Assembly (NCBI GenBank): GCA_903862955.1
Contig: CAIPAH010000030.1
Span: 228,748-292,747, forward strand
Source of the DNA: an uncultured Opitutia bacterium
GTDB taxonomy: Bacteria; Verrucomicrobiota; Verrucomicrobiia; Opitutales; Opitutaceae
Reading direction: 5' to 3'
DNA length: 64,000 nt
The notes beneath the pieces are model-generated. The model searched no databases, was not told where the DNA came from, and worked only from the letters and a program-made list of their open reading frames with translations. Positions 2,918 to 22,149 of this stretch are shown here, in pieces; position 1 is the first letter of the stretch; every line of letters starts with the position of its first letter. The position numbers and the translations under genes are program-made.

Positions 2918-3700
2918 ATGCTCAAAAACAAATCCGCCCTCGTGACGGGCTCCACCAGCGGCATCGGCCTGGGGCTTGCGCGCGCGCTGGCGCGGGCCGG
3001 CGCCAACGTGATGCTCAACGGCTTTGGCGACGCCGCGGCGATCGAGCTGCTGCGCCGCGAACTCGCCACGGCGACTGGCGTGCAGGTGCTTCATCACCCC
3101 GCCGATGTCAGCAAACCCGCCGAGGTGGCGGCGATGGTCGCGGCGACGGAACAGGCGTTCGGCGGCGTGGACGTTCTCATCAATAATGCCGGGATCCAGT
3201 TCGTCTCGCCGGTGGAGGACTTTCCCCTCGAGCGCTGGGCGGCGATCCAGGACGTCATCCTCAACGCCAGTTTCTACTCCATCCGCGCCGCCCTGCCCGG
3301 CATGAAGCGCCGCAACTGGGGCCGCATCATCAACCTCGTCTCGACCCACGGCCTCGTCGCCTCGCCGTTCAAGTCCGCCTACGTCGCCGCCAAGCATGGC
3401 CAGGTCGGCCTCACCAAGTCCGTCGCGCTCGAGGTCGCCGAGGTCGGCATCACGTGCAACGCGATCTGTCCCGGCTATGTGCTGACTCCGCTGGTGCAGG
3501 GGCAGATCGAAAGCCAGGCCAGGGTGAACAACCTGCCGCCGGAGCGGGTGATCAAGGAAGTGATCCTCGCCGTCCAGCCGACGAAGCGCTTCGTCGAGAT
3601 CGAGGACATCGCCGCCCTCGCCGTTTTCCTCTGCAGCGACGCCGCCAAATCGATCACCGGCGCCGCCATCCCCATCGACGGCGGCTGGACCGCGCGGTGA
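2918..3700 (+). CDS. bdhA: 3-hydroxybutyrate dehydrogenase (SDR family)
   Basis: 260 aa. It has the TGSTSGIGLGLA dinucleotide-binding motif, NNAG, and the Y-x3-K catalytic pair (YVAAKHG). Length and overall sequence look BdhA-like. Confidence 0.8.
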   Translation: MLKNKSALVTGSTSGIGLGLARALARAGANVMLNGFGDAAAIELLRRELATATGVQVLHHPADVSKPAEVAAMVAATEQAFGGVDVLINNAGIQFVSPVEDFPLERWAAIQDVILNASFYSIRAALPGMKRRNWGRIINLVSTHGLVASPFKSAYVAAKHGQVGLTKSVALEVAEVGITCNAICPGYVLTPLVQGQIESQARVNNLPPERVIKEVILAVQPTKRFVEIEDIAALAVFLCSDAAKSITGAAIPIDGGWTAR

Positions 3701-3802: not shown

Positions 3803-5308
3803 TCACCACAGCCCGAGGTTTACGCGGCGGACTTCGACCGGTTGATCGGTCTCGTTGCGCAGCTCGAGAGTGTTAGCCCCGGGCTGCAGCAGCGCGGAGT
3901 CAAACCGATACAACTGTGACTGGTCGCGCGTCGGGCGGTGGCTGCTGACGTTCGAAAAATTGTTCGGCGGCACGATGTATTCGAGGAACAGCTCCGGCGG
4001 GTGAATCGTCGGCACCCGCTCCAGGGCGCGGCCATCGATCGCCACCGCGAGCGGCGCGTCCGTGTTGAGGAGAATCCGCGCCCGCCAAGCCGGCAGGGCC
4101 AGCGGCGGAATGTTCAAAGCCAGCGTCACCGCGCTGTGTGCCGGGATCTGCACCGGCAGCACCGCCGGCTGGTCCATTTCCTTGCGGTATTTGTTCACCG
4201 GCAGCGAAAACAGCAGTGGCTTCCGCGCGGCCGTGGAGGGCGACTCGAGCCCGGCGATCCATTCGTAGGGCACGACGCCGAAGTCGGCATGGCCGACAAA
4301 ATTGAAGAGGCTGATGCCGTCCGCTCCGCACGCATACAGGCCCGTCGCCGCTGCGCGCAGCGACTCCGCGTTGTGATGCTGCCAGCCGTGCTCGATCTCG
4401 ACCGACGCGTAGATTGGCATCGCCGACCCGAACATTTTCCGGAACTCGCCAATCGGCATGCTGAAATCCGTGTCGAGGAACTCCGACACCGTCACGAAGT
4501 CCACCAGCCCGCGTTTCACCCAGTCCTCGACGTCCACGCCCAGCACCCGGCAGCCGCGCGGCGTGCTCGGCACACGCACCGACAGCTTCAGGCCGTGTTT
4601 CTGGGTCAGCTGGCGCGCGAACTCCACGATGCGGGTGAGATATTCCCGCTTCGCCCACACCTCGTCGCCCACGCCGGACAGGTGCCGGGGAAAACGCATC
4701 CAGTCGAGCTGCAGGCCGTCCATGGACTTCGCATATCGCTCCACGACCTCCGTCAGCATCGCGCGGAGATAGTGGTCCGCCTCCGGCTGTGAGAAATCGA
4801 GGCTCCAGTTCATCCACTCCGGGTCGCCCCGCGCCGCCGCCTCGGGCCGCGCGATGACATCGGGGTGCTGCTCGCGCACCAGCGGCATGTTCCAGTGATC
4901 CGCGTCGGTGGGATTGTGCACGTCGTTCATGCGATAGGTGATGAACGTCTCGCGGCCCGACGCGTGGAGTTTCTCCAGGAAGTAGCCAAATGGGTCGTTG
5001 CCCTTGGCATGCTCTGCGTTGAGTTGCTTCAATCGTGGATCCACCAGGCCAATCTTCGTCGGGAAATAAAACCGGCCCGCGCCGCAGCAGAGCAGGAACG
5101 TGGTGACGTTCGGCGGGATTTCGCGGATGCGCTCGTCGATGTCGGCGCGAAAGTCCGTCGTCAGCGTGGAGAATTGCGCGTGGCCGTCATGGTCGAGGAT
5201 CAACCGGTGCGGCCGGGCCGGGGGTTCGGCCGCCGCCAGCGGGAGCGCCAGCGCCAGCAACATCGCGCACGCGGCGCCGCGCCGCGAGACAGGGGTAAGG
5301 GGGTGCAT
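3803..5308 (-). CDS. exported hypothetical protein (possible glycoside-hydrolase-like TIM barrel)
   Basis: The start was moved to ATG 5308 (MHPLTPVSRRGAACAMLLALALPLAAAEPP is a signal-peptide-like N-terminus). The tracked start at 5419 would add 37 aa and overlap the divergent gene. The function guess comes only from general composition (DWMRFP, alternating hydrophobic strands). Confidence 0.6.
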   Translation of the reverse strand: MHPLTPVSRRGAACAMLLALALPLAAAEPPARPHRLILDHDGHAQFSTLTTDFRADIDERIREIPPNVTTFLLCCGAGRFYFPTKIGLVDPRLKQLNAEHAKGNDPFGYFLEKLHASGRETFITYRMNDVHNPTDADHWNMPLVREQHPDVIARPEAAARGDPEWMNWSLDFSQPEADHYLRAMLTEVVERYAKSMDGLQLDWMRFPRHLSGVGDEVWAKREYLTRIVEFARQLTQKHGLKLSVRVPSTPRGCRVLGVDVEDWVKRGLVDFVTVSEFLDTDFSMPIGEFRKMFGSAMPIYASVEIEHGWQHHNAESLRAAATGLYACGADGISLFNFVGHADFGVVPYEWIAGLESPSTAARKPLLFSLPVNKYRKEMDQPAVLPVQIPAHSAVTLALNIPPLALPAWRARILLNTDAPLAVAIDGRALERVPTIHPPELFLEYIVPPNNFSNVSSHRPTRDQSQLYRFDSALLQPGANTLELRNETDQPVEVRRVNLGLW

Positions 5309-5417
5309 CGCAGCCCGACGCTGGCCCGCACGCGCGGCGTTGTCTAGTCCCACGGTTGCGCGGCTCTTGCCAAGCTCTGCCGTGCCCTTCAGAGATGAAG
5401 CCGGTCCGCGCCCCACC

Positions 5418-8400
5418 ATGGAAGCCTTCTTCGTCTTGTTGGCCCTCTACTTGATCGCGGCGGTCGTCGTCCTGCCCATCTGGACGATCATCAAGATCAC
5501 CCAGCAGCGGCGCGACCAGGAGATCCTGCAACAGCAGCTCACTTTCCTAGAAAAGGAAATCCAGGCCCTGCGCGCCGAGCTGAAATCGTCCCCCGTCGCC
5601 CCCGCACCCGCGCCCGCGGTTGCTCCCGCGCCCCAATCGGTCACCCCACCGCCGGCGCCCGCGCCGGCCAAGCCGGTCGTCGTCTCCGCCCCGCCCGTCG
5701 TCAGCATTCCCCTGCCCGCGCCTGCACCTCAGTCCGTCCCGGCGGACCTGCCGCCGGTGTTGCCGCCGGTGATCGCGGCGTCCCGGCCAGTGTATGTTCC
5801 GCCGGCACCCGCGCCTTCCGGCATCAACTGGGAGCAATTCATGGGCGCCAAGCTCTTCGCGTGGCTCGGCGGTTTCGCGCTGTTTCTCGGCGTCGCGTTC
5901 TTCGTCAAATACTCCTTCGAGCACGACCTGATCCCGCCCGAAGTGCGCGTCGCCCTCGGCTTCCTGCTGGGCGCGGGGCTGATCGTGGGCGGGTTGAAGA
6001 TCACGTCGGATCGGCTCCGCGTCACGTCGCAGACGCTCATCGCGAGCGGCGTCGTGTCGCTTTACGCCGTCACGTTCGCCTGCAACTCGATCTACCACTT
6101 CGCGTTCTTTGGCCCGGTGCCGAGCTTCGTACTGATGTCGCTGATCACGGCGACGGCCTTCGTCATCGCGGTGCGCCTCGGGGCGCCCGTCGTGGCCATC
6201 CTCGGCATCCTCGGCGGTTTCCTCACGCCGAGGCTGATCAGCACCGACCAAGACAATCCCCCGGGGTTGTTCAGCTACCTGGCGCTGTTGGACGTGGGGC
6301 TGATCTCGGTGGCGCTGCGACGCCGCTGGTTCTATCTCGTGCCGTTGGGTGCCGGCGGAACCGCGCTGCTGATGATCGGCTGGGCCGCTAAGTTCTACGC
6401 GCCGGAAAAGACCTCCACGGCCATGATTGTCTGCCTGGGTTTCTCGGCCTTGTTTATCATCGCCAACGACCTCGCCCGCCGATGGGACTGGCATGACCGC
6501 CTGCTCTCGCTGTCCGCGGCGGTGATACCGCTGGTGGCGTTCGGCTTCGCGTTTGCGTTCCTCGACTACCCCACCGTCGCGGCGCGGGGCGGACTTTACC
6601 TGGGCTTTGTGCTGCTGGTGGACGCGGCGCTGATGATCCAGTGCTGGCGGGACGACACGCTGCCGCGCCTTCATCTCGTGGGTGGATTCGTGTCGTTCGC
6701 GCTGCTGGCGTTCTGGACCGGCGGACACTTGACCGACGATCTGCTTCCCATCGCCCTGGCTGCGTTCCTCGTGTTCGCCGCCCTGCATTCCGCCTTCCCG
6801 TTGTTGCTGGAACGCCAGCGGCCCGCCAGCACGCCAACGTGGTGGAGCCAGCTCTTTCCGCCGCTCACGCTGCTCCTGATGCTCGGGCCGATCTTCAAGC
6901 TCGAGGCGGTGTCACTGCTGATCTGGCCTGCCATCCTGCTCGTGGACGTGCTCGCCATCGGGCTCGCCGTGCTGAGCGCGTCGCTCGCCGCCGTCGCGGC
7001 CGTGCTCGTCCTCACGCTGATCGCCACCGGCCTGTGTATTTTCCGCCTGCCGGTGACCGCCGCCCTCGACTCATCCCTGTTGCTGGTGATCGCCGGCTTC
7101 GCCGTGTTCTTCTTCGTCACGAGCCTGTGGTTGGTGCGCAAGCTCGGCGCGAAACTTCCCGCCGACGGCGGGCCGCTCGCCGGGGTTTTCGGCGACGCCC
7201 GCGCGCAACTGCCCGCGTTCGCGTCGCTCCTGCCGTTCGTCCTCCTCATCATGGCGTGCGAGCGGCTCTGGATCCCTGATCCGTCGGCCGTGTTCGGCCT
7301 CGGGCTGCTGCTGGTCGTGCTCACGCTCGGGCTGGCCCGGTTGCTTGTCATCGAATGGCTGCCCGTCTGCGCCCTCGTCGGCATGGCCGCGCTCGAGTTT
7401 GCGTGGCACAACCATTATCGCGCGCTGTCCCGCGCGGAGCTCCCGCTCGGCTGGTATCTTCTCTTCTATGCGATCTTCGCGGTGTATCCGTTCCTCTTCC
7501 GCGGGGTTTTCCAACGGCTCACCGGGCCGTGGGCCGTGGCCGCGCTGAGCGGGCTCGCCCATTTCTGGATGGTTTACCAGGCGCTGAAGCCGGACTGGTC
7601 CGCCGATTTGCTCGGTGCGATCCCGGCCCTCTTCGCGCTCGCGCCACTGCTCAGCCTCTTTGTCGTCCTGCGGCTCACGCCGCCGGAACAACCCGCGCGA
7701 CTCAACCAGCTCGCGTGGTTCGGCGGCGTGACGCTGTTCTTCATCACGCTCATCTTCCCCATCCAGTTCGAACGCCAGTGGCTCACCGTCGCGTGGGCGC
7801 TCGAGGGCGCGGCGTTGCTTTGGCTGTTTCACCGCGTGCCGCACCCGGGCCTGCGCGCCACCGGCGCCGTCTTGCTGGTCACGGCTTTCGTGCGGCTCGC
7901 GCTCAATCCCGCCGTTTTCGCCTACCACCCGCGGAGTGACGTCGCGATTTTCAACTGGTATCTCTACGCCTATGGCCTCGCAATCGCCGCGCTGTTCGTG
8001 GGTGCCCGGCTGGCTGCGCCGCCGCGCGAACGCATCCTCGGTGTGAACGCCCCGCCGCTGTTCCAAACCCTCGGCGTCATCCTCGCGTTCGTCCTGCTTA
8101 ACGTCGAGATCGCCGACTACTTCACCCCAGTCGGCGCGCGCGCCCTCACGTGGCAATTCTCCGGCAGCTTCGCCCGCGACATGACCTACACGATCGCGTG
8201 GTCCCTCTTCGCCCTCGGCCTGCTGGTCGCCGGCATCTGGAAGGAAGCCCGCCTCGCGCGCTACGCCGCCATCGCGCTGCTCAGCGTCGCCCTGCTGAAG
8301 CTCTTCTTCCACGACCTCGCCCAGCTCGCCCAACTCTACCGCGTCGGCGCGCTCTTTGCCGTCGCCGCCGTCGCCATCCTCGCCTCCTTCGCCTACCAAC

Positions 8401-8438
8401 GCTTCCTGCCGAGCAATGAAAAGACGCCCCGGACTTGA
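5418..8438 (+). CDS. DUF2339-like giant polytopic membrane protein
   Basis: The start was moved to ATG 5418 (MEAFFVLLALYLIAAVVVLPIWTII...). The protein has an N-terminal TM segment and a coiled-coil-like stretch (QQRRDQEILQQQLTFLEKEIQALRAELK). A roughly 90-aa Pro/Ala/Val-rich linker follows, then more than 20 hydrophobic segments to the C-terminus. The upstream 106 codons of tracked ORF 5100.. are antisense to the neighbouring gene. Confidence 0.8.
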   Translation: MEAFFVLLALYLIAAVVVLPIWTIIKITQQRRDQEILQQQLTFLEKEIQALRAELKSSPVAPAPAPAVAPAPQSVTPPPAPAPAKPVVVSAPPVVSIPLPAPAPQSVPADLPPVLPPVIAASRPVYVPPAPAPSGINWEQFMGAKLFAWLGGFALFLGVAFFVKYSFEHDLIPPEVRVALGFLLGAGLIVGGLKITSDRLRVTSQTLIASGVVSLYAVTFACNSIYHFAFFGPVPSFVLMSLITATAFVIAVRLGAPVVAILGILGGFLTPRLISTDQDNPPGLFSYLALLDVGLISVALRRRWFYLVPLGAGGTALLMIGWAAKFYAPEKTSTAMIVCLGFSALFIIANDLARRWDWHDRLLSLSAAVIPLVAFGFAFAFLDYPTVAARGGLYLGFVLLVDAALMIQCWRDDTLPRLHLVGGFVSFALLAFWTGGHLTDDLLPIALAAFLVFAALHSAFPLLLERQRPASTPTWWSQLFPPLTLLLMLGPIFKLEAVSLLIWPAILLVDVLAIGLAVLSASLAAVAAVLVLTLIATGLCIFRLPVTAALDSSLLLVIAGFAVFFFVTSLWLVRKLGAKLPADGGPLAGVFGDARAQLPAFASLLPFVLLIMACERLWIPDPSAVFGLGLLLVVLTLGLARLLVIEWLPVCALVGMAALEFAWHNHYRALSRAELPLGWYLLFYAIFAVYPFLFRGVFQRLTGPWAVAALSGLAHFWMVYQALKPDWSADLLGAIPALFALAPLLSLFVVLRLTPPEQPARLNQLAWFGGVTLFFITLIFPIQFERQWLTVAWALEGAALLWLFHRVPHPGLRATGAVLLVTAFVRLALNPAVFAYHPRSDVAIFNWYLYAYGLAIAALFVGARLAAPPRERILGVNAPPLFQTLGVILAFVLLNVEIADYFTPVGARALTWQFSGSFARDMTYTIAWSLFALGLLVAGIWKEARLARYAAIALLSVALLKLFFHDLAQLAQLYRVGALFAVAAVAILASFAYQRFLPSNEKTPRT

Positions 8439-10410
8439 CCGCCTCGCCCTGCTGCTCGCCCTCGCCGCCGCCACGCCACTCGGCGCCGTGCTGGTGCCGA
8501 CGGAGTGGTCACATCGGCAGGAACTCCTGATCTCCTCCCCGGGACTCATCCGCGTGGACTTGACCGCGGCCTCCTTCGACGCCGCCGGCCCGCGCCAGGA
8601 AGACCTCCGCGTCATCGATGCGACCGGCCGCGAAATTCCTTCCCTGCTGGACCGCCCACCCGTGCCACTCGCGCAAACGGTCCGGCCGTCGGCCTTCGGC
8701 GTGAAACTGGAGGGCAGCACGACCGTCCTCACGCTCACCACCGGCACGACAGACGCGCTGGCCGCCGTCACGCTGGAAACGCCGCATCCGTTCTTCCTGC
8801 GCTCCGCGCGTGTGGAGCTTTCGGACGACGGCGTGCAGTGGACCCAGCTCGACTCGGGCCTCCCGCTTTTCCGCCAGTGGGGCGCCGAGAAACTCACCCT
8901 GCCGCTTGGCCAGCGCACCGCCGCTTTCGTGCGCATCGCGGTGTCCGGCGACCGCGCCGGCGCGATGCCGTTCACCGGCGCGTGGCTCAGCCTCGCCGCC
9001 GCACCCGCGCCGGCCCTCCTGCCCGTGGAGGCACAGATCACCCGGCGTGAGGAATTCGCCGGTGAAACCGTGCTTACGCTGGCTCTCGCCGGCCGTCACT
9101 TGCCGCTGGCCGCACTCACCTTCGATACCAAGGAGCCGCTGTTCATGCGGCGCGTGAGCGTCACCGTCCGCGAAGTCCGCGAGGCCGTGCCCGGCGAGCG
9201 CACCGTCGGGGCGGGCACGATTTACCGTGTCGCCCTCGACGGCGCGCCGGCGCGCGCGCAGCTCGAGGTGCCGTTGAATTTCACCGCCCCGACGCGCGAG
9301 GTCCTCGTGCACATCTTCAACGGCGACTCACCCCCGCTGGCGCTGGACGGCGTGCGGCTGCAACGCTGGCCGGTCAATCTCCTCTTCATGGCGCCCGCCT
9401 TCGGCCGTTTCGCGCTGCTCTCGGGCAATCCCCAGGCCGGCTCGCCGCACTACGACCTCGCCGGTTTCGCGGACCAGCTGCGCGCCGCGGGCGCCACCGT
9501 CGTCGTCCCGGGTGCGATGGAAGCCATGCCCAACTACCACCCGCGCGAGTCCCTCGCCGAGGCCCCGCTGCCCGATGTGCCCCTCGCCGGCGCCCCGCTC
9601 GACGCCGCGGACTGGCCCGACCGCCGCCCAGTCGGCATTCAACACGCCGGCGTGCAGGAGCTGGAGCTGGACCTCGAGGCCCTCGCCCGGTCCCGCGCGG
9701 ACTTCGGCGACCTGCGGCTGCTCCGCGAGGGCAACCAGATCCCCTACGTCCTCGAGCTGCCCGGCCTCGCGCGCTCGCTGAATCTTTCCCCGGCCGCCGC
9801 GCCCGACCCGAAGCGCCGCTCCGTTAGCGTGTGGCAATTGCAGCTGCCCCACGCCGGCGCCCCGCTGCGCCGGCTCGTGCTGTCGTCGCGCACGCCGCTC
9901 TTCTCGCGCGAATTCCGCATCTACGAAAAAGTCAGCACGCCGGAGGGTCGCACCTACGAAAACCTCCTCGCCAGCGGCGCTTGGAGCCGGACGCCCGAGC
10001 CGGGCGTGCCGTTGACGCGCGTCTTTGACCTCCTCGACCGGATGCGGACGGACACACTTTGGATCGAGACCGACAACGGCGACAATCCCGCGATCTCCCT
10101 CGACAGCGTGCAGGTCGTGTATCCGGTGGCGCGCCTGATCTTCAAAGTCGCGGACACCGATGGTTTCTCGCTGATCTACGGCAACAAGGACGCCACCACG
10201 CCGCGCTACGATCTTCGCCTGGTCGCCGAAAAGCTGCTCACCTCCAGTCGCAACATCGCCACCCTCGGCGCGGGCGAAACAAACTACGCCGCACACAACA
10301 CATTCGCCGGCCTCAAGGGCGGTTACGTCTTCTGGGGCGCCCTCGCGCTGGTCGTCATCGTCCTGCTCACCGTCGTTTCGAAGCTCCTGCCCAAGCCGCC
10401 GCTGATCTAG
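8416..10410 (+). CDS. DUF3999-like exported protein with C-terminal membrane anchor
   Basis: The start was moved to ATG 8416 (MKRRPGLDRLALLLALAAATPLGA signal peptide). It overlaps the upstream stop by 23 nt. The protein has two similar halves and a terminal TM segment (YVFWGALALVVIVLLTVVSKLL). Confidence 0.75.
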   Translation: MKRRPGLDRLALLLALAAATPLGAVLVPTEWSHRQELLISSPGLIRVDLTAASFDAAGPRQEDLRVIDATGREIPSLLDRPPVPLAQTVRPSAFGVKLEGSTTVLTLTTGTTDALAAVTLETPHPFFLRSARVELSDDGVQWTQLDSGLPLFRQWGAEKLTLPLGQRTAAFVRIAVSGDRAGAMPFTGAWLSLAAAPAPALLPVEAQITRREEFAGETVLTLALAGRHLPLAALTFDTKEPLFMRRVSVTVREVREAVPGERTVGAGTIYRVALDGAPARAQLEVPLNFTAPTREVLVHIFNGDSPPLALDGVRLQRWPVNLLFMAPAFGRFALLSGNPQAGSPHYDLAGFADQLRAAGATVVVPGAMEAMPNYHPRESLAEAPLPDVPLAGAPLDAADWPDRRPVGIQHAGVQELELDLEALARSRADFGDLRLLREGNQIPYVLELPGLARSLNLSPAAAPDPKRRSVSVWQLQLPHAGAPLRRLVLSSRTPLFSREFRIYEKVSTPEGRTYENLLASGAWSRTPEPGVPLTRVFDLLDRMRTDTLWIETDNGDNPAISLDSVQVVYPVARLIFKVADTDGFSLIYGNKDATTPRYDLRLVAEKLLTSSRNIATLGAGETNYAAHNTFAGLKGGYVFWGALALVVIVLLTVVSKLLPKPPLI

Positions 10411-10413
10411 ACG

Positions 10414-12567
10414 TCACCGCAGCGTGCGCAGTCCCAGCAGCGCGGATTCCACGCGGTCGAACACCGCCAGCCCAACTTCGCCAAACGCCGAGCGATAACC
10501 GTCGTAGTCCGGCCCAGCGTCCACCGCGACGGCGACCGGCTTGCCGTGTTTTGCCGCCAGCTTGGCCAGCGCCGCGGCGAACGGCGCAGCGTCCGGCCGG
10601 GCGGTGTTAAGCCGGCGCGTGAACGGCACCAGCCCCACGATCAGCAACGCCGCAGAGCCAAGCACCAGGTCCACCGCGGCGAGAAAGGCGTCTTCACTGG
10701 CCATCGGGGTCAGGTCGAGTGGCAGCTGGGGATTCACGAGGGTGTTGAGCTGGTGACGCACCAGCAGCGCGGCCAGTTCTTCCTTCGCCGCAGGTGTCAG
10801 CACGGCGGCATCAAGTCCCTGGGCGAGCAGGTCGCTCGCGTTCACGCTTTCGAATCCGGCGTTGGTGACCAACGCCACCGGGCCGGGCGGAGTCGCGGGA
10901 TACGTGCCCAGCCATTCGAGGGCGGCGTCGAACGCGGCAATCGACGCCGAAAGTTTCACGCCCGCGCGCTGTAGCAACGTCTGCTCGAGGTCCCAGTCCC
11001 CCGCCATCGCGCCCGTGTGGCTCGCCGCCGCCGCGTGTCCCGCCGGCGTGCGCCCCGCCCGGTGCATCAGCACCGGGATTCCCCGTTCGTGCAGCCGTTG
11101 CGCGGCCTTCGCCGTCGCCAGCAGCTGGCCCGGCCCAAATCCTTCGACGTAGGCCGCCACGGCACCGCACTCGGACTCTCGCGCCAGCGCCCGCAGAAAA
11201 TCCGGCAGCGCCGCGTCCATCTGGTTGCCCAGCGCCACCCCTAGGCCGAAACGTAGCCGCAGCGCGCGCGAGCGCCGGCACAGCAGGAACGCGCCGCTCT
11301 GGCTGAGCAGCACCAAGTCGCCTCCGGTAGACCTCGGTGGGGTGAGTTTCTCCGCCGGGATGAAGGACGTGTCGAGTTGGAGCGCGGGCACCCAATGCCC
11401 CAGAAAATTCGGCCCGAGCACCGTTGGCGTCCACCGCCCCGCCGCGCGTGCCTCCTGCAGCTGTTCCTCCAGTTGACGTCCGAGTCCCGTCACATCCGCC
11501 CCATCGCCAAGGCCACCCGAAACGAGCGCGACCACGCTCGCCCCGCCTCCCTGTCCGATAAGGGCTGTCAGCACCGCCGCCGCCGCGGGCGCGGGCAACG
11601 CGAGCACCAGCAGGTCCACGGGCGCGGCTCGCAGCGCCAGGACGTCCGGCACGCATGGCAGGCCCAGCAATTCAGCCTGGCCGGGCTTGATGAGGGTGAT
11701 GGCGCCCGCCAGCGCGGGACACCGGCAGAGATTTTCCAGGATGACGCGGCCCACGCCGCCGGGCTTTTCCGACACACCGGCGAGCGCGACACGGCGGGGA
11801 TGACGCAGCGCCGGCAGAAATGCACCCGGAGGCGGCAAACGCCGTTTTGGCATCGCTCCCCGGCGGCCCACCGCGTCCACCGGCCGCGGTTGCCCGATCT
11901 CATCGAGCACGACGGGATTCATTTCCAGCAGGTTGATTCCGTCCGTCTCGGCGAGCGCTGCCAGCCGCCACACCGCCTCGATGAATTCGGCCAGTTGGGG
12001 CTCGGTGGTCAGCGGCGTCGTGCCGCGCAGCCGGCCCAGCCAGATCCGGCCGAGCAAATGCGCCTTCAGTTCCGCGAGGGCGTCCGCCGGTTGGACGAGC
12101 GCCAGCGGCCAGCGCAACGGCGGAGCCGCGGCGGCGAGCGCGTCGGCCTGCAGTCCGCCAAAGCCGCACAGCACCACCCAGCCCGCCTCGCCGCGGGCGA
12201 GGGACACAAAACCTTCCGACGGCAATCCATCCGCGTGCGCCACGGCGATGCGTTCGCAGACCAGCGCTCCGATCCAGCGGTGGCCGGCGTCCTCGACCCG
12301 GCGGGCCATCATGTGCGCTGCGGTGATGACGGGCGTGACCGCAAACGTCATGAACTCGACCGCGCCCGCTTCCGACTTGTGCCAGAGTTCCTCACCCAGC
12401 CCCTTGAGCACCACCGGTTCGCCGGCTGCGAACGGCAGCGGCTTGCCGATCACCGCGTGCCGCGGCGGCTCGAGTCCGGAGCGGAGGATCAACTCATAGG
12501 CCTCGGCCTCGCCGACAAAGCTGCCTCGGACCGCCGGTTCCGGAAGGACTGCGGCGTCGGAGTTCAT
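10414..12567 (-). CDS. ADP-forming acyl-CoA synthetase (acetate--CoA ligase family), fused with ATP-grasp domain first
   Basis: 717 aa. The N-terminal part is ATP-grasp-like (VVLKGLGEELWHKSEAGAV, LLEMNPVVL). A CoA-binding part follows (RRVALAGVSEKPGGVGRVILENL, GPNFLG, LLSQSGAF), with the phosphohistidine motif AASHTGAMAG. The start overlaps the upstream stop (ATGA at 12564-12567). Confidence 0.8.
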   Translation of the reverse strand: MNSDAAVLPEPAVRGSFVGEAEAYELILRSGLEPPRHAVIGKPLPFAAGEPVVLKGLGEELWHKSEAGAVEFMTFAVTPVITAAHMMARRVEDAGHRWIGALVCERIAVAHADGLPSEGFVSLARGEAGWVVLCGFGGLQADALAAAAPPLRWPLALVQPADALAELKAHLLGRIWLGRLRGTTPLTTEPQLAEFIEAVWRLAALAETDGINLLEMNPVVLDEIGQPRPVDAVGRRGAMPKRRLPPPGAFLPALRHPRRVALAGVSEKPGGVGRVILENLCRCPALAGAITLIKPGQAELLGLPCVPDVLALRAAPVDLLVLALPAPAAAAVLTALIGQGGGASVVALVSGGLGDGADVTGLGRQLEEQLQEARAAGRWTPTVLGPNFLGHWVPALQLDTSFIPAEKLTPPRSTGGDLVLLSQSGAFLLCRRSRALRLRFGLGVALGNQMDAALPDFLRALARESECGAVAAYVEGFGPGQLLATAKAAQRLHERGIPVLMHRAGRTPAGHAAAASHTGAMAGDWDLEQTLLQRAGVKLSASIAAFDAALEWLGTYPATPPGPVALVTNAGFESVNASDLLAQGLDAAVLTPAAKEELAALLVRHQLNTLVNPQLPLDLTPMASEDAFLAAVDLVLGSAALLIVGLVPFTRRLNTARPDAAPFAAALAKLAAKHGKPVAVAVDAGPDYDGYRSAFGEVGLAVFDRVESALLGLRTLR

Positions 12568-13997
12568 GCGGGCAGGAGCAGCGCCTCCACTGCGTCACGA
12601 CCCGCGGCGAACGCCGCCTCGTTGAGGGGCAGGACGGCCGGCTTGTCGTGCAACACATGCCGCAGCGTGTCGACCACGCTGTCCTCGGGCAAAATCTGCA
12701 GCGCAGCCTGCAGGGCGCCGAGCGCGACGACGTTCTTGACCACGGGCCGGCCGAGTTCGGTCGCGATGCGCGTGAAGGGAACCGGATAAACCCGCAGGTG
12801 CGCGGGCAGCAGCGGCGGCGCGGTGATGATGGTGCTGTCGTAGAGGATCACGCCGCCCTTTTTCACCATGGCGGCAAATTTGGACAGGCTCGGCGCGTTG
12901 AAGGCGACGAGCACATGCGGCATGGGAGCTGCCGGGTTCAACACCTCGTGCTCGGCAAGGTGCACGTCGGCATACGACGTGCCGCCGCGGCTCTCGGGGC
13001 CGTAACTCGGGATGTCGGTGGCGTCGTAGCCCTGCGCGATCGCCGCGCGGGTGAGCAGCAGCGCCGCCGTCTGCGCGCCGTCGCCGCCGGAACCCGCGAG
13101 CTTGATGGCGATGTCCCGGGCGGGGAGATGCGCGGGCCAGGCCGGCGGAGCGTGCGCGTCCACGTCGGCGCTGGGCTCGGCGCCGATGAGTTCCAGGAGT
13201 GGCGTGGGCTCGAACACCGGCGCGCCAGGCTTGAACCACGGCTCGACCGTCAAGTCCTTCTTCACGCCGAGCGGATAAACCGGAGCCATCTTCGTCTTCA
13301 CCCACTCCTCCGCCTCCTGCGGCGTCATCTTCAGGTGCGTCGGGCACTCGGCGATGATTTCGACAAAGGAATAACCGCGGCCCTCGATCTGGTTCGTAAG
13401 CGCCTTGCGGATGGCCTTGCGGGCCTTCACGCGTTCGCGGGCGTCGAACAGTGCGACGCGTTCGACATAAACCGGCCCATCCAGCTGGGCGATGAGCTCC
13501 GCCATCTTCAGCGGCTGGCCCATCGCGGGACCGCGGCCCTCGGGCGTGGTCGTGGTTTTCTGGCCCATCAGCGAAGTCGGCGCGAGCTGGCCGCCGGTCA
13601 TGCCATAGACGGCGTTGTTGATGAAGATGACCGTGATCGGCACGCCCATCTGCGCGATCGAGATGGTCTCGGCGAGGCCGATCGACGCGAGGTCACCGTC
13701 GCCCTGGTAGCTGATGACGACCGCCTCGGGATGCGCGAGCTTGTGCCCCAACGCGACCGCGGGCGCGCGGCCGTGGGCGGCCTGCGAGTTGCCGACGTCG
13801 AAGTAGTAATGCGCGAACACCGCGCAGCCGACGGGGCTGATCAGCACCGTCTGGTCCTGGATGCCCAGCTCGTCGATGGCAGCGGCAAGGTCGCGGTGAA
13901 CCACGCCGTGGCCGCAGCCGGGGCAGTAGTGCGTGCTGTGGGCCTTGAGCCCCTCGCCGTGGGAGTGACGTTGAAAATTTTCGTAGAACGCGTTCAT
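12564..13997 (-). CDS. 2-oxoacid:ferredoxin oxidoreductase, fused beta (TPP-binding) + gamma subunit
   Basis: 477 aa. It has a TPP-binding region (GCGHGV..., GDGDLASIGL...NNAVYGMTGGQ). The C-terminal half resembles the gamma/catalytic domain (IKLAGSGGDGAQTAA). There are ATGA overlaps at both ends. Confidence 0.8.
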   Translation of the reverse strand: MNAFYENFQRHSHGEGLKAHSTHYCPGCGHGVVHRDLAAAIDELGIQDQTVLISPVGCAVFAHYYFDVGNSQAAHGRAPAVALGHKLAHPEAVVISYQGDGDLASIGLAETISIAQMGVPITVIFINNAVYGMTGGQLAPTSLMGQKTTTTPEGRGPAMGQPLKMAELIAQLDGPVYVERVALFDARERVKARKAIRKALTNQIEGRGYSFVEIIAECPTHLKMTPQEAEEWVKTKMAPVYPLGVKKDLTVEPWFKPGAPVFEPTPLLELIGAEPSADVDAHAPPAWPAHLPARDIAIKLAGSGGDGAQTAALLLTRAAIAQGYDATDIPSYGPESRGGTSYADVHLAEHEVLNPAAPMPHVLVAFNAPSLSKFAAMVKKGGVILYDSTIITAPPLLPAHLRVYPVPFTRIATELGRPVVKNVVALGALQAALQILPEDSVVDTLRHVLHDKPAVLPLNEAAFAAGRDAVEALLLPA

Positions 13998-15400
13998 GAC
14001 AGCACCTCCTCGCGGGCGAGCAGCGTCGCCAGGATTTCGTCCTGCGCCGGCAGGTTGCCGCCGCAGCGTCGCACGTGGTCAATCGGCGGCGGCGCGATGT
14101 TGGCGTGGCTGAGGGCCAGCCGGAGTTCGTCCTCGAGCTGCCCTGGGCCAGCCTCGACCACCACGATGCGCCGGACTCCCGGCATGATTTCCGCGAGCGC
14201 ATCGATTGGGAAGGGCCACAGCGTAATCGGGCGGAAGAGGCCGGCCTTCACACCGTTCTCCCGCGCGGTTTCGACCGCGCCCTTGGCCATGCGGGCGGGC
14301 GTATTGCAGGCGACGACCAACACCTCGGCATCGCGGCAGCGGTAGCAGTCCACGCGCTGCTCGCAGGCAGTGATGGCGGCATACTTGCGGTTGAGATGCT
14401 CGTTGTGGTCCTCGAGGTCGGCCTCGGCGAGGGCGATGGAGCTGATGAGATTGTGCCGGTGCGCGCGGTCGCCCCACACGGCCCACGCGGGCAGGCCGGG
14501 CCGGATCATTGACGCCGGCAGCCGCACCTTGCCGGTCATCTGGCCGAGGTAGCCGTCGCCGAGGAGGATGACGGGATTGCGGTAACGAAAGGCCAGGGCG
14601 AACGCGTCGATCGCGAGGTCGAGCATCTCCTGCGGCGTGCTCGGCGTGAGGACGATCGCGTGGGTGTTGCCATGGCCGAGGCCGCGGCAGGCCAGCTTGA
14701 TGTCGGTCTGCTCGGGCGCGATGTTCCCGAGGCCGGGTCCGCCGCGCATCATGTTGACGAACACGCCAGGCACTTCCGCGCCGATCATGTAGCTGACGCC
14801 CTCGAGCATGAGGCTGAAGCCCGGGCTGCTCGTGAAGGTCATGCACGGCAGCCCGGCGCCCCCGGCGCCATACATCATGTTCACTGCGGCGACCTCGCTC
14901 ACGGCGTGAACGAAGTGTCCGTTGAGCTTCGGCAGGATGCGCGCCATGAGCTCCGCGCCCTCGGTGCTGGGCGTGATCGGGTAGCCAAAAACGTGGCGGC
15001 AACCCGCCAGCAGCGCGCCGATGGCGGTGGCGTAAGTGCCTTTCAGCACCAGCGGCTCACAGTCCGGCAGCGCGCGCCGGTCGTCAGGCAGGTCGCCCTC
15101 CGAGTGGTTCGGCACGCACTTCTCGCCGAACAGCTTGGCCGGGTCCTCGAGCACGAACTCGCCCTCGAGTCCCGCCCGGTCGGTCTCCAGCCGCAGGCCA
15201 TACGGTTCGGGACAAGCCTGCAGGCAAAGCGTGCAGCCGTTGCAATTTTCCAGGTGCAGCTCAACCGGCACGAGGCCGGTGGCGGGATTGATGGCGGAGC
15301 CCGGCGTGATGCAATCGCGTGGGCAGGCCTCGATGCAACGGAGGCAGCCCTTGCAATATTGGGGCTCGAGGTAGGGTTTGGGACGGACGGAAGCGGACAT
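13994..15400 (-). CDS. 2-oxoacid:ferredoxin oxidoreductase, fused delta (2x[4Fe-4S] ferredoxin) + alpha subunit
   Basis: 468 aa. The N-terminus has two Cys clusters (CKGCLRCIEACP and CNGCTLCLQACP), followed by an alpha-subunit-like body. It is the first gene of a three-gene translationally coupled unit. Confidence 0.8.
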   Translation of the reverse strand: MSASVRPKPYLEPQYCKGCLRCIEACPRDCITPGSAINPATGLVPVELHLENCNGCTLCLQACPEPYGLRLETDRAGLEGEFVLEDPAKLFGEKCVPNHSEGDLPDDRRALPDCEPLVLKGTYATAIGALLAGCRHVFGYPITPSTEGAELMARILPKLNGHFVHAVSEVAAVNMMYGAGGAGLPCMTFTSSPGFSLMLEGVSYMIGAEVPGVFVNMMRGGPGLGNIAPEQTDIKLACRGLGHGNTHAIVLTPSTPQEMLDLAIDAFALAFRYRNPVILLGDGYLGQMTGKVRLPASMIRPGLPAWAVWGDRAHRHNLISSIALAEADLEDHNEHLNRKYAAITACEQRVDCYRCRDAEVLVVACNTPARMAKGAVETARENGVKAGLFRPITLWPFPIDALAEIMPGVRRIVVVEAGPGQLEDELRLALSHANIAPPPIDHVRRCGGNLPAQDEILATLLAREEVLS

Positions 15401-17594: not shown

Positions 17595-18779
17595 TCAGGC
17601 CAGCTCCACGCACACCGCCAAACCCTCGCCGCCGCCGATGCAGATGGCGGCGACGCCGCGCTTCAGTCCGCGCTCCTTCAGCGCCGCCAGCAGGGTGACC
17701 ACGATCCTGGCGCCACTCGCACCGATGGGATGGCCGAGCGAGATCGCACCGCCGCGCACGTTGAGCTTTTCGTGCGGTACTCCGAGTTCCTGCATGAACG
17801 CCATGGGCACGACCGCGAAGGCTTCGTTTACTTCCCAGAGCTCGACGTCGCCCACCTTCCAACCCGCGCGTGCCAGTGCGTTCTGCGTCGCCTGCACAGG
17901 GGCGGTGGTGAACCAAAGCGGGTCCTGGGCGTGTCCGCCGAAAGCCACGATGCGTGCGAGGGGCCTGAGTTTCTTCGCCTGCGCGCTGGCCGACGTCGCC
18001 AGCACCACGGCCGCCGCACCGTCGTTGATCGTGGACGCGTTCGCTGGGGTGATCGTGCCGGCTTTGTCAAAGGCGGGGCGCAGCGTCGGGACCTTGTCGT
18101 ATTTTACCTTCGCCGGGCCCTCGTCCTGCTCGACTTTAGTGACGCCGCCCTTCGCGTCGGTGATTTCGACCGGTGTGATTTCCGCCGCAAACCGCCCATC
18201 TTTCTGCGCCGCGTTGGCGCGCTGGAACGAGGCGATGGCGTAGGCGTCCTGCTGCTCGCGCGTGAAGCCGTATTTGGCCGCGCACTTTTCCGCACAGTTG
18301 CCCATGTGGAGGTTGTTGTAGGGATCCCACAGCCCATCGAGGATCAGCGAGTCGACCACCTGCTGGTTGCCGAGCCGGTAGCCGTCGCGCGCTTTCGGCA
18401 GCAGGTAGGGCGCGGCGCTCATGTTCTCCATGCCGCCCGCCACGACCAGCGTCGCCGCATCGAGCGCCAGTGCGTGCACGCCCTGCATGATCGACTGCAG
18501 GCCCGACCCGCAGACCTTGTGAATCGTGACCGCGCGCGCCGAAGTCGGCAGGCCAGCCGCCAGCGCCGCCTGCCGGGCGGGCGCCTGGCCCTGGCCAGCC
18601 TGGAGCACATTGCCCATCAGCACGTCGGACACCTCTGCCGGCGCGACGCCGACCTGCGCAAGCGCGCCCATGATTGCGGCCGCACCGAGCTTCGACGCCG
18701 GCACGCCTGCGAGGGCGCCCTGAAACGAGCCAAGCGGCGTGCGCGTGGCGGAAAGAATGACGATGTCGGGTTGGGACAT
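17595..18779 (-). CDS. acetyl-CoA C-acetyltransferase (thiolase II)
   Basis: ATG 18779 (MSQPDIVILSATRTPLGSF) is preferred over the tracked GTG at 18800. It has the active-site regions VCGSGLQSI, NVRGGAISLGHPIGASG and CIGGGEG. Confidence 0.9.
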   Translation of the reverse strand: MSQPDIVILSATRTPLGSFQGALAGVPASKLGAAAIMGALAQVGVAPAEVSDVLMGNVLQAGQGQAPARQAALAAGLPTSARAVTIHKVCGSGLQSIMQGVHALALDAATLVVAGGMENMSAAPYLLPKARDGYRLGNQQVVDSLILDGLWDPYNNLHMGNCAEKCAAKYGFTREQQDAYAIASFQRANAAQKDGRFAAEITPVEITDAKGGVTKVEQDEGPAKVKYDKVPTLRPAFDKAGTITPANASTINDGAAAVVLATSASAQAKKLRPLARIVAFGGHAQDPLWFTTAPVQATQNALARAGWKVGDVELWEVNEAFAVVPMAFMQELGVPHEKLNVRGGAISLGHPIGASGARIVVTLLAALKERGLKRGVAAICIGGGEGLAVCVELA

Positions 18780-18804
18780 GGGGTGAGCTTTATCTGACAC
18801 TATC

Positions 18805-20810: not shown

Positions 20811-20813
20811 GGG

Positions 20814-20924
20814 AAATTTTCGAATTTCGATTTCCGAATTTCGAATGGCAGGCGGCTGGGGGTGATTTGGGCGGGGCTGGTGGTTGGGCTCCGGGCAGAA
20901 ATCGAAATTAGAAAATCGAAAATT
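20814..20924. repeat. AT-rich inverted arrays of heptamer AATTTCG (about 4 direct copies on the left, reverse-complement copies on the right) around a 51-nt GC-rich spacer
   Basis: The left array (20814-20846) is aattttcg aatttcg atttccg aatttcg. The reverse complement of the right array (20898-20924) is aattttcg attttct aatttcg atttc. The right array contains the hppD stop codon. The left array abuts the hmgA start. Confidence 0.7.
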
Positions 20925-22041: not shown

Positions 22042-22149
22042 GGGGTGGACGGGGTGCGGGCAATCTAACCTCACCTTCCGCCGGGGTCCATCGGCCAAAT
22101 GGAGTAATCCGCCGCTTGCGCCGCCCGCGCTTCCCCGCCAGCTTCCGGC

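What the first reader, a model, noticed from the sequence alone, without database searches (positions are those of the whole stretch)
5418..10410. Translationally coupled DUF2339-like / DUF3999-like envelope gene pair of unknown function
Seen in the sequence:
- A 1006-aa protein starts with one TM helix, then a heptad-like segment (QQRRDQEILQQQLTFLEKEIQALRAELK).
- A roughly 90-aa Pro/Ala/Val low-complexity linker follows; the motif PAPAPQSV occurs twice in it.
- More than 20 hydrophobic segments then run to the C-terminus.
- The next gene starts 23 nt before that stop.
- Its product is a signal-peptide protein made of two similar halves. Compare LIRVDLTAASFDAAGPRQEDLRVIDATGREIPSLLD with VQELELDLEALARSRADFGDLRLLREGNQIPYVLE. 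It ends in a single TM anchor.

From memory these resemble Pfam DUF2339 and DUF3999. To my knowledge neither has an assigned function, and they are often neighbours.

Inference: a large membrane platform plus a tethered periplasmic two-module partner looks like a dedicated envelope machine for sensing, scaffolding or surface remodelling. This is the best candidate in the window for an undescribed system.
Basis: partly seen in the sequence, partly recalled or inferred. Interest (0 to 1): 0.7.

Follow-up and report, generated by a model that had tools for sequence, protein, structure and literature searches.

The report
Arc3A/Arc3B-type membrane defence gene pair
This overlapping gene pair is real, but it is a divergent verrucomicrobial relative of Arc3A/Arc3B, a pair shown in 2022 to protect Pseudomonas aeruginosa from phospholipase toxins injected by rival bacteria, so it is not an undescribed system.

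Summary
Gene 1 (5418-8438, +) encodes a 1006-aa protein. It has an N-terminal TM helix, a short heptad coil, an ~80-aa Pro/Ala/Val linker and about 24-30 further membrane helices (Pfam DUF2339, 258 bits). Gene 2 (8416-10410, +) starts 23 nt before gene 1's stop. It encodes a 664-aa signal-peptide protein with three beta-sandwich domains and a C-terminal TM anchor (Pfam DUF3999, 39 bits; cutoff 30).

The reading as an undescribed system does not hold. Adjacent PF10101 + PF13163 genes are how Ting et al. 2022 (eLife, PMC8926400) define relatives of Arc3A/Arc3B (PA5114/PA5113). There, Arc3A defends against T6SS phospholipase toxins and prevents lysophospholipid build-up, and Arc3A and Arc3B co-purify. 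Gene 1 is clearly homologous to the B. cenocepacia Arc3A homologue tested in that paper (E 7e-19).

What differs here:
- The partner is highly divergent.
- It has no lipoprotein signal.
- It carries an extra C-terminal module that is a condensed internal duplicate.

This form is common in Opitutaceae-like metagenome sequences. Function here is inferred by homology only, and the mechanism is unsolved even in Pseudomonas. Verdict: a new, architecturally variant member of a known kind; low to moderate interest.

The parts
5418..8438 (+). Gene 1: a 1006-aa DUF2339 (Arc3A-family) polytopic inner-membrane protein.
   Evidence: ORF and start codon. Pfam PF10101 at 258 bits. Homology to the Enterobacter DUF2339 protein (blastp E 6e-20; hhalign 99%) and to the B. 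cenocepacia Arc3A homologue (blastp E 7e-19).
5424..5480 (+). N-terminal TM helix, residues 3-21.
   Evidence: Hydropathy 2.88. Part of the continuous helix 2-56 in the AF2 model. The Enterobacter and B. cenocepacia proteins also start with a hydrophobic helix. The primer-encoded first 6-7 residues of the Pseudomonas and C. rodentium homologues are mostly hydrophobic too.
5499..5585 (+). Short heptad-like coiled-coil segment, residues 28-56.
   Evidence: Hydrophobic residues at 37/41/44/48/51/55 (read from the sequence). Helical in the model. Equivalent segments are present in the Enterobacter and B. cenocepacia proteins.
5586..5825 (+). Disordered Pro/Ala/Val-rich linker, residues 57-136. The 7-mer APAPQSV occurs at residues 69 and 101.
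   Evidence: Composition 72% P/A/V. pLDDT below 50. Linker length varies among relatives, whose proteins run from 1000 to 1290 aa.
5829..8405 (+). Polytopic membrane domain, residues 138-996, about 30 predicted helices. Contains the conserved motifs GGFLTP (residue 266), AWALEGAALLWL (792) and LKLFFHDL (960).
   Evidence: AF2 secondary structure, hydropathy, and motif comparison with the Enterobacter and B. cenocepacia proteins.
8416..8438 (+). 23-nt overlap between the end of gene 1 and the start of gene 2, which makes translational coupling likely.
   Evidence: Read directly from the sequence. An overlap is conserved in relatives: 29 nt in L024; 4 nt in L026, Enterobacter and B. cenocepacia; and an ATGA overlap in PA5114/PA5113, deduced from published primers.
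8416..10410 (+). Gene 2: a 664-aa divergent DUF3999 (Arc3B-family) periplasmic partner.
   Evidence: ORF. Pfam PF13163 at 39.1 bits on residues 107-358 only. More than 120 relatives of the same length.
8416..8490 (+). Signal peptide, about residues 1-24/25, of signal peptidase I type with no lipobox cysteine.
   Evidence: Sequence MKRRPGLDRLALLLALAAATPLGA|VLVPTEW. Only 2 of 120 relatives have a lipobox-like match. Residues P28, E30 and W31 of the mature N-terminus (TPTEW in most relatives, VPTEW here) are invariant.
8512..8994 (+). Beta-sandwich domain D1, residues 33-193, discoidin / galactose-binding-like.
   Evidence: AF2 model, pLDDT about 90. Foldseek matches to factor V C1-C2, DDR1 and neuropilin b1b2. 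A weak sub-threshold F5/8 type C echo.
9019..9525 (+). Beta-sandwich domain D2 plus a helix/strand tail, residues 202-370.
   Evidence: AF2 model. Together with D1, collinear with the canonical two-domain Enterobacter DUF3999 protein (hhalign 26-346 against 24-375, E 0.004; weak).
9526..9618 (+). Low-confidence interdomain linker, residues 371-401.
   Evidence: pLDDT falls to 52-61 across residues 371-390, and below 50 at residues 378-385.
9619..10281 (+). Extra module D3 plus tail, residues 402-622. It is a condensed internal duplicate: its start resembles the start of D1, and the rest resembles D2 plus its tail.
   Evidence: Self-comparison by blastp (E 3e-11) and hhalign (96.6% and 72%). 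AF2 model. No Pfam hit on its own.
10321..10386 (+). C-terminal TM anchor, residues 636-657, followed by a short basic tail.
   Evidence: Hydropathy 2.51. Helix 637-657 in the model. Aligns to the C-terminal anchor of the B. cenocepacia DUF3999 protein (hhalign 557-656 against 340-436, E 0.002; weak).

Best explanation
The two genes are the Opitutaceae-type version of the Arc3A/Arc3B system.

Gene 1 product (Arc3A family, DUF2339): a very large inner-membrane protein. By analogy with P. aeruginosa Arc3A, it protects the cell's own membrane against phospholipase-A-type attack by stopping detergent-like lysophospholipids from accumulating.

Gene 2 product (Arc3B family, DUF3999): made from the same transcript, probably by coupled translation. 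It is exported, held in the inner membrane by its C-terminal helix, and projects three discoidin-like beta-sandwich domains into the periplasm as an accessory partner of the membrane protein.

Shown here:
- The gene anatomy.
- Family membership.
- Homology of gene 1 to an experimentally used Arc3A homologue.
- Conservation of the overlapping pair down to 34-44% identity.
- The three-domain fold and the internal duplication of the partner.

Inferred by homology only: the phospholipase or lysophospholipid protective function, and the physical association of the two proteins.

Unknown even for the type system: the molecular mechanism. Ting et al. suggest either sequestering lysophospholipids and facilitating their turnover, or recruiting and blocking the phospholipase.
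For: - Pfam PF10101 (258 bits) and PF13163 (39 bits, cutoff 30) on adjacent co-oriented genes. This is exactly the criterion Ting et al. used to call Arc3A/Arc3B homologues (methods section).
- Experimental role of Arc3A/B in P. aeruginosa and P. protegens, complementation by distant homologues, co-immunoprecipitation, co-occurrence and fusions. Protection against further lipase effectors.
- Gene 1 matches the B. cenocepacia gene (blastp E 7e-19, 29% identity over 352 aa). Published cloning primers identify that gene as the I35_RS27920 homologue used in the complementation test.
- Gene 1 matches the Enterobacter DUF2339 protein (blastp E 6e-20; hhalign 99%, E 2e-18).
- The N-terminal TM helix, coil and Pro-rich linker, and three motifs, are shared across phyla.
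- The overlapping A-then-B order is conserved in Enterobacter, B. cenocepacia, P. aeruginosa (from primers) and in relatives at 60% and 34% identity.
- Gene 2 has a signal peptide, beta-sandwich ectodomains and a C-terminal anchor, as in canonical DUF3999 proteins.
Against: - No experiment exists on any verrucomicrobial member.
- Gene 2 is at the very edge of DUF3999: 39 bits, against 302-355 bits for the proteobacterial partners. It gives no blastp hit to those partners, and hhalign reaches only E 0.002-0.004 at 8-12% probability.
- The predicted outer-membrane lipid anchor of P. aeruginosa Arc3B is absent here.
- The order and spacing of conserved motifs in gene 1 differ from the proteobacterial proteins. 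The AWALEG motif is at residue 792 of 1006, against 422 of 869 and 539 of 1155.
- Gac/Rsm control cannot apply, because that pathway is restricted to Gammaproteobacteria.
- No aas/lplT, T6SS or phospholipase gene lies nearby; the neighbours are ordinary metabolic genes.
- In P. aeruginosa, Arc3B itself contributed little to defence.
Confidence: 0.6

Rival explanations
1. A housekeeping membrane-lipid homeostasis device rather than an antagonism defence. The pair would continuously buffer or clear endogenous or environmental lysophospholipids and other membrane-damaging amphiphiles, independent of attack by other bacteria.
For: - The pair sits among core metabolic genes, with partly conserved synteny (SDR upstream, acyl-CoA synthetase and oxidoreductase downstream) in relatives.
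- The pair is very widely conserved: 4945 representatives for the partner profile and 2134 hits for gene 1.
- Ting et al. note that environmental and endogenous lysophospholipids may be a constant threat.
- There is no Gac/Rsm pathway outside Gammaproteobacteria.
Against: In P. aeruginosa, no change in LPE stability was detected without antagonism, and Arc3A expression is low without Gac/Rsm activation. This rival overlaps mechanistically with the main explanation and differs mostly in the trigger.
Confidence: 0.25
2. One reading: a previously undescribed envelope machine for sensing, scaffolding or surface remodelling.
For: - The anatomy: a large membrane platform plus a tethered periplasmic multi-domain partner.
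- No solved structure and no known fold match for the membrane protein.
- Discoidin-like domains often bind ligands such as lipids or carbohydrates (plus general knowledge).
Against: - The family pair has been described and given a phenotype.
- There is no signalling output domain in either protein.
- No regulator or cell-surface biosynthesis gene is linked in a conserved way. The GT9 and PfkB genes upstream are separated from the pair by other genes, and no GT9 gene is seen in the stretch of the relative L024 that was examined.
Confidence: 0.07
3. A transporter or permease. The ~30-helix protein would move a substrate (lipid, polymer or glycan) that the beta-sandwich partner captures in the periplasm.
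For: - Many TM helices, with conserved polar motifs within them (GGFLTP, AWALEG, KLFxHDL).
- The partner's domains resemble carbohydrate- or lipid-binding modules.
Against: - No Foldseek match at E <= 1e-3 to any transporter fold; the top hits are generic helical repeats.
- No ATPase or energy-coupling gene in the operon.
- Ting et al. found that Arc3A did not contribute to LPE re-acylation or turnover in spheroplasts.
Confidence: 0.08

Closest known systems
Arc3A/Arc3B (PA5114/PA5113) of Pseudomonas aeruginosa, 'antagonism resistance cluster 3' (Ting et al. 2022, eLife 11:e74658)
   Same: - Adjacent, co-oriented, overlapping genes in the order DUF2339 then DUF3999.
- The A protein is a huge polytopic membrane protein that begins directly with a hydrophobic segment (PA5114 starts MQWIFML by primer; gene 1 starts MEAFFVLL).
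- The B protein has an N-terminal export signal and a single C-terminal TM helix.
- Both Pfam families are hit above the gathering threshold.
   Different: - No direct alignment to PA5114/PA5113 was possible, because the sequences could not be fetched.
- The partner here has no lipoprotein signal.
- At 664 aa it is about 200 aa longer than the canonical Enterobacter and B. cenocepacia partners (452-459 aa), owing to an extra duplicated module, and it barely passes the DUF3999 threshold.
- About 24-31 TM helices are predicted here, against the 35 reported for Arc3A.
- Gac/Rsm regulation and the neighbouring estA gene are absent.
B. cenocepacia I35_RS27920 homologue and its DUF3999 neighbour (locus L022, 5320-8694 and 8691-10049)
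   Same: - An Arc3A homologue that Ting et al. expressed in P. aeruginosa delta-arc3A; the gene was identified here by their primers.
- Shares with gene 1 the N-terminal TM helix, coiled coil and low-complexity linker, the first seven or so helices (29% identity, E 7e-19), and the GGFL(T/A)P, AWA(L/I)EG and KLFxxDL motifs.
- 4-nt overlap with its partner gene.
- Its partner also lacks a lipobox.
   Different: - 1124 aa, scoring 608 bits on PF10101, against 1006 aa and 258 bits here.
- Different spacing of the motifs.
- Its partner is a canonical 452-aa DUF3999 protein (355 bits).
Enterobacter hormaechei plasmid pRHBSTW-00844_2 pair HV295_RS21690/RS21695 (annotated as DUF2339 and DUF3999)
   Same: - Overlapping A-then-B pair.
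- hhalign 99% probability to gene 1 over residues 1-340.
- Its termini resemble those of the C. rodentium homologue that Ting et al. tested (MDELYIL against primer-encoded MDDLLIL).
   Different: - 869 aa and 459 aa.
- Its partner aligns only weakly, though collinearly, with D1-D2 of gene 2 (E 0.004).
LplT/Aas lysophospholipid transport and re-acylation pathway
   Same: The same physiological problem: removing lysophospholipids generated by phospholipase attack. Ting et al. report that aas genes neighbour arc3 genes in many bacteria.
   Different: - Unrelated proteins.
- Arc3 acts independently of Aas.
- No aas/lplT-like gene is adjacent here.

Membership tests
Pfam DUF2339 (PF10101) | Whole-protein HMM score at or above the gathering threshold of 33.6 bits. 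| tested here: met
   258.1 bits, E 2.9e-76, in three stretches, the best at residues 144-592. The B. cenocepacia reference scores 608 bits.
Pfam DUF3999 (PF13163) | Whole-protein HMM score at or above the gathering threshold of 30 bits. | tested here: met
   39.1 bits, E 7e-10, covering only residues 107-358 (profile positions 119-369 of 424). This is marginal: canonical partners score 302-355 bits, the C-terminal module alone gives no hit, and a 34%-identical relative (P0389) gives no hit at all.
Arc3 system (Ting et al. 2022) | PF10101 and PF13163 genes adjacent and in the same orientation. This is the paper's own operational definition of Arc3A/B homologues. | tested here: met
   Genes at 5418-8438 and 8416-10410, overlapping by 23 nt. 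Definition taken from the paper's methods section.
Arc3 system (Ting et al. 2022) | Arc3A: very large polytopic membrane protein with an unusually high number and density of TM helices and no evident catalytic residues. | tested here: met
   24 hydrophobic segments by hydropathy and about 31 helices in the AF2 model. There is no other Pfam or NCBIfam domain above its cutoff.
Arc3 system (Ting et al. 2022) | Sequence homology of the A protein to an experimentally tested Arc3A homologue. | tested here: met
   blastp E 7e-19 to the B. cenocepacia I35_RS27920 homologue, identified by primers. blastp E 6e-20 and hhalign 99% to the Enterobacter protein. Direct comparison with PA5114 was not possible.
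Arc3 system (Ting et al. 2022) | Arc3B: N-terminal lipoprotein signal, predicted to anchor it in the outer membrane. | tested here: not met
   There is no cysteine in the signal peptide. Only 2 of 120 relatives show a lipobox-like pattern. The B. cenocepacia and Enterobacter partners also lack one, so this feature may not define the family.
Arc3 system (Ting et al. 2022) | Arc3B: single C-terminal inner-membrane TM helix. | tested here: met
   Helix at residues 636-657. It aligns, weakly, to the B. cenocepacia partner's anchor.
Arc3 system (Ting et al. 2022) | Sequence homology of the B protein to canonical Arc3B/DUF3999 proteins. | tested here: inconclusive
   No blastp hit to either reference partner. 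hhalign gives collinear but weak alignments, E 0.002-0.004 at 8-12% probability. The only formal link is the marginal Pfam hit.
Arc3 system (Ting et al. 2022) | Stable physical association of the A and B proteins. | not testable with these tools
   Co-immunoprecipitation was shown only in P. aeruginosa. No multimer prediction tool was available. Indirect support comes from the conserved overlapping gene order down to 34-44% identity.
Arc3 system (Ting et al. 2022) | Protection against PLA-type toxins and prevention of LPE/MLCL accumulation. | not testable with these tools
   This is an experimental phenotype. Nothing is known for Verrucomicrobiota.
Arc3 system (Ting et al. 2022) | Gac/Rsm-dependent expression. 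| not testable with these tools
   The pathway is restricted to Gammaproteobacteria. Source names of the closest homologues place this window in Opitutaceae/Lacunisphaera-like bacteria.

The most novel reading that the evidence does not exclude
The roughly 660-aa partner has three modules, no lipid anchor, and arose by internal duplication. It is common in the public data: nearly all of the 150 best 50%-identity representatives share this length, and some members are invisible to Pfam DUF3999. Together with a DUF2339 protein whose membrane modules are rearranged, it could define a distinct subtype of the Arc3-like system. Such a subtype might use a different way of reaching across the periplasm, and possibly a different target (another membrane-damaging agent, or envelope lipid traffic) than the Pseudomonas phospholipase defence.
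Probability: 0.15. Interest if true: 0.5.

Novelty: new member of a known kind. Interest (0 to 1): 0.25.

Why it matters
It mainly matters as a correction. The best candidate for an undescribed system in this window belongs to a pair that already has a name and a phenotype, Arc3A/Arc3B, a defence against interbacterial phospholipase toxins.

The family is still mechanistically unsolved and has no experimental structure. Divergent members like this one therefore have comparative value:
- They show which features are conserved across phyla: the N-terminal TM helix, coil and Pro-rich linker; the GGFLTP, AWALEG and KLFxxDL motifs; the overlapping gene order; and the partner's C-terminal anchor.
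- They show which features are dispensable or variable: the lipid anchor of the partner, the number of beta-sandwich modules, and the number and order of TM modules.

This can guide mutagenesis and structural work on the type system.

Tried and rejected
- Fetching PA5114/PA5113 from the species-representative genomes with exact primer-derived patterns failed. The 24-mer found nothing. The 18-mer found 21 matches but none in P. aeruginosa; the only Pseudomonas hit (L001, P. koreensis) has no ORF long enough to be a DUF2339 gene and was not examined further. B. cenocepacia and Enterobacter pairs from the plasmid collection served as proxies instead.
- The Foldseek search of the gene 1 model against the PDB gave no hit at E <= 1e-3, only generic helical-repeat proteins. 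The model itself is only moderately confident (pLDDT 69).
- The Foldseek search of the whole gene 2 model gave only generic tandem discoidin or CBM-like matches with poor global TM-scores. Domain-wise searches were not possible.
- Sequence search of the PDB found nothing for gene 1, and only non-significant neuropilin echoes for gene 2.
- Self-comparison of the gene 1 family profile found no significant internal repeats.
- NCBIfam gave only a sub-threshold FtsL-like echo from the TM helix plus coil.
- Promoter and terminator scans were uninformative: no sigma-70-like site, and terminator-like sites at the chance rate.
- The neighbouring genes show no functional link to the pair.
- The cluster look-up of ten distant partner representatives returned no organism names, so the taxonomic breadth of the three-module form stays unknown beyond Opitutaceae/Lacunisphaera labels.
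- Other papers that mention DUF2339 (a Stenotrophomonas evolved mutant and a P. syringae transposon hit) give no mechanism.

Full report
**1. The observation**

The region holds two overlapping plus-strand genes.
- Gene 1 runs from ATG 5418 to the stop at 8438 (1006 aa).
- Gene 2 runs from ATG 8416 to the stop at 10410 (664 aa).
- Gene 2 therefore starts 23 nt before gene 1 ends.

Both frames have the high third-position GC (0.87-0.88) of the other real genes in this 67% GC window. Independent public gene calls on other contigs give the same two products, and an identical gene 1 protein is on record.

- A TM helix at residues 3-21.
- Hydrophobic residues at 37/41/44/48/51/55 with 4-3-4-3-4 spacing. 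AlphaFold models residues 2-56 as one continuous helix.
- An ~80-residue linker that is 72% Pro/Ala/Val and modelled as disordered.
- 23 more hydrophobic segments by hydropathy, or about 30 helices in the model.

One small error: PAPAPQSV occurs once. The repeated unit is APAPQSV, at residues 69 and 101.

Gene 2 has a signal peptide and a single C-terminal TM helix. Its internal similarity is statistically real. Residues 218-370 match 471-622 (blastp E 3e-11; hhalign 96.6%). Residues 23-133 match 392-502 (hhalign 72%, E 3.5e-5). Pfam confirms DUF2339 (258 bits) and DUF3999 (39.1 bits against a cutoff of 30).

**2. What it is**

A full-text search for the two DUF names led to Ting et al. 2022 (eLife 11:e74658, PMC8926400). 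That paper names the P. aeruginosa pair PA5114 (Pfam 10101) and PA5113 (Pfam 13163) Arc3A and Arc3B, for 'antagonism resistance cluster 3'. Its main findings:
- Arc3A is the single most important cellular factor for surviving the T6SS phospholipase Tle3 of Burkholderia thailandensis.
- Without Arc3A, lysophosphatidylethanolamine and monolysocardiolipin accumulate.
- Arc3A acts independently of the LplT/Aas re-acylation route.
- Distant Arc3A homologues complement the mutant.
- Arc3A and Arc3B co-immunoprecipitate.
- The two genes are neighbours across a very wide range of bacteria and are sometimes fused.

A 2025 preprint reports that arc3A also protects against the lipase effectors TseL of V. 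cholerae and Tle1 of A. baylyi. The paper's own criterion for homologues is a PF10101 protein with an adjacent PF13163 protein. The window's pair meets that criterion.

**3. Direct comparison with tested or canonical members**

I could not fetch PA5114/PA5113. Two exact-pattern scans built from the paper's primers found no P. aeruginosa locus.

A tblastn search of the plasmid collection gave two canonical pairs instead.

The first is in Enterobacter hormaechei. It is annotated as DUF2339 (869 aa) plus DUF3999 (459 aa), with a 4-nt overlap.

The second is on a B. cenocepacia 3.2-Mb replicon. The paper's cloning primers for i35_rs27920 match the B. cenocepacia gene at its start (0 mismatches) and at its stop (1 mismatch). 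It is therefore the same-species counterpart of a homologue used in the complementation experiment.

Gene 1 matches both proteins:
- Against B. cenocepacia: E 7e-19, 29% identity over 352 aa.
- Against Enterobacter: blastp E 6e-20; hhalign 99% probability over residues 1-340.

So are three motifs: GGFL(T/A)P, AWA(L/I)EG...W and KLFxxD(L/S).

The primers also show that PA5114 begins MQWIFML and that its TGA overlaps the ATG of PA5113. Overlapping, probably coupled, translation is thus a family trait.

**4. What is different here**

The partner is far from the canonical DUF3999 proteins.
- The B. cenocepacia and Enterobacter partners score 355 and 302 bits over the whole Pfam profile.
- Gene 2 scores 39 bits, on residues 107-358 only.
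- Its C-terminal module gives no hit, and a 34%-identical relative gives none at all.
- blastp finds nothing between gene 2 and the canonical partners.
- Profile comparison gives only weak alignments, E 0.002-0.004 at 8-12% probability. D1-D2 (26-346) aligns collinearly with Enterobacter 24-375. The tail plus anchor (557-656) aligns with B. cenocepacia 340-436.

The AlphaFold model is good (pLDDT 84, pTM 0.75). It shows three beta-sandwich domains (33-193, 202-336 and 402-588). The second and third are each followed by a short helix and strand. After the third comes the TM helix 637-657.

Foldseek finds only the generic discoidin / galactose-binding-like class: factor V C1-C2, DDR1, neuropilin b1b2 and Cry protoxin domains. 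Combined with the self-alignment, the extra roughly 230-residue module looks like a condensed duplicate of the ancestral two-domain ectodomain.

The signal peptide has no lipobox, and the same is true of 118 of 120 relatives. The outer-membrane lipid anchor predicted for P. aeruginosa Arc3B is therefore absent. It is also absent in the Burkholderia and Enterobacter partners, so it is probably not a family-defining feature.

In gene 1 the conserved motifs are spaced differently from the proteobacterial proteins. This fits the paper's remark that TM numbers vary across the family.

The gene 1 model is only moderately confident (pLDDT 69). It has no PDB fold match at E <= 1e-3, and neither family has a solved structure.

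**5. Distribution and context**

Source names of the closest homologues are Opitutaceae, Lacunisphaera and Opitutae MAGs, which belong to Verrucomicrobiota.
- More than 120 partner homologues at 57-94% identity are almost all about 660 aa long.
- A profile search of 1.84 billion representatives finds 4945 relatives. The 150 best are nearly all full-length three-module proteins.
- The overlapping pair is kept in a relative at about 60% identity (L024).
- It is also kept in one at 34% (partner) and 44% (membrane protein) identity (L026).

This is an inference from the tables.

Neighbours in the window are ordinary metabolism:
- PfkB kinase, GT9 and an SDR upstream.
- An ADP-forming acyl-CoA synthetase, a 2-oxoacid:ferredoxin oxidoreductase, an acetoacetyl-CoA-synthetase-like enzyme and a thiolase on the other strand downstream.

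There is no aas/lplT, T6SS or phospholipase gene anywhere in the window, and no RNA family or tRNA.

**6. How it most likely works**

Shown here: the homology, the architecture and the conserved pairing.

Inferred: the membrane protein limits lysophospholipid accumulation caused by phospholipase-A-type damage. Its periplasmic partner is anchored by its C-terminal helix and assists as a bound accessory subunit.

The molecular mechanism is unknown even in Pseudomonas. The authors suggest either lysophospholipid sequestration and turnover, or recruiting and blocking the phospholipase.

The main rival is a constitutive lipid-homeostasis role rather than antagonism defence. This is plausible given the housekeeping context and the absence of Gac/Rsm. 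A sensing or remodelling machine, or a transporter, has little support.

**7. Verdict**

The family guesses from memory were correct. The 'undescribed system' claim is not.

This is a new member of a known kind. It has a variant partner architecture (three modules, no lipid anchor, near the Pfam detection limit) that may be worth a line in a comparative study. Interest is low to moderate.

Noticed in passing
window 3803-5311 (-): A divergently transcribed gene for a roughly 500-aa protein with a signal-peptide-like start (MHPLTPVSRRGAACAMLLALALPLAAA) and no Pfam hit at E <= 1e-5. The long ORF's first ATG (5419) would overlap the start of gene 1, so the real start is probably the internal Met. 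The gene is present upstream of the pair on same-species contigs but not in the relative L024, so it is not part of the system.
   Followed up: partly
window 2918-3700 (+), 15563-17494 (-), 17595-18800 (-): An SDR (possibly 3-hydroxybutyrate-dehydrogenase-like; this is my guess, as Pfam gives only generic SDR families), an AMP-forming acetoacetyl/acetyl-CoA-synthetase-like enzyme and a thiolase flank the pair. This suggests a ketone-body or short-chain acyl-CoA metabolism neighbourhood. The SDR upstream of the pair is conserved in relatives.
   Followed up: partly
window 10414-15400 (-): Three genes with 4-nt overlaps between them: an ADP-forming acyl-CoA synthetase (717 aa), and the beta/gamma (477 aa) and ferredoxin-alpha (468 aa) subunits of a 2-oxoacid:ferredoxin oxidoreductase. 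This looks like a substrate-level phosphorylation module.
   Followed up: partly
window 19629-24244: An aromatic amino acid catabolism cluster: a homogentisate-dioxygenase-like gene, 4-hydroxyphenylpyruvate dioxygenase and a biopterin-dependent aromatic amino acid hydroxylase.
   Followed up: partly
window 24000-27100: A stretch with lower GC (0.63-0.65) and negative AT skew. It holds a small polytopic membrane protein, a secreted beta-propeller-like protein (25122-26147, -) and a possible outer-membrane protein (26168-27043, +). None passed my GC3 filter for typical genes.
   Followed up: no
L024 10048-10909 and L025 4694-5555: In a related genome (partner 60% identical), two small ORFs carrying the two IS110-family transposase domains (119 aa with DEDD_Tnp_IS110, 184 aa with Transposase_20) lie immediately downstream of the DUF3999 gene. 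They sit between it and the otherwise syntenic acyl-CoA synthetase.
   Followed up: no
gene 1 residue 792, against Enterobacter residue 422 and B. cenocepacia residue 539: The conserved AWA(L/I)EG...W motif sits much later in the Opitutaceae protein than in the proteobacterial ones. The GGFLTP and C-terminal KLFxxDL motifs keep their relative places. This suggests that blocks of TM helices were inserted or lost on either side of the motif.
   Followed up: partly
L022 (NZ_CP091013.1): A 3.2-Mb B. cenocepacia replicon is filed as a plasmid in the plasmid collection, with only 4 annotated features. Its DUF2339/DUF3999 pair is unannotated there and had to be read from ORFs.
   Followed up: yes
Genome-contig collection: Two exact patterns taken from published PAO1 primers (24 nt and 18 nt) found no P. 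aeruginosa contig. The representative genome may differ at both sites, or that stretch may not be searchable.
   Followed up: no
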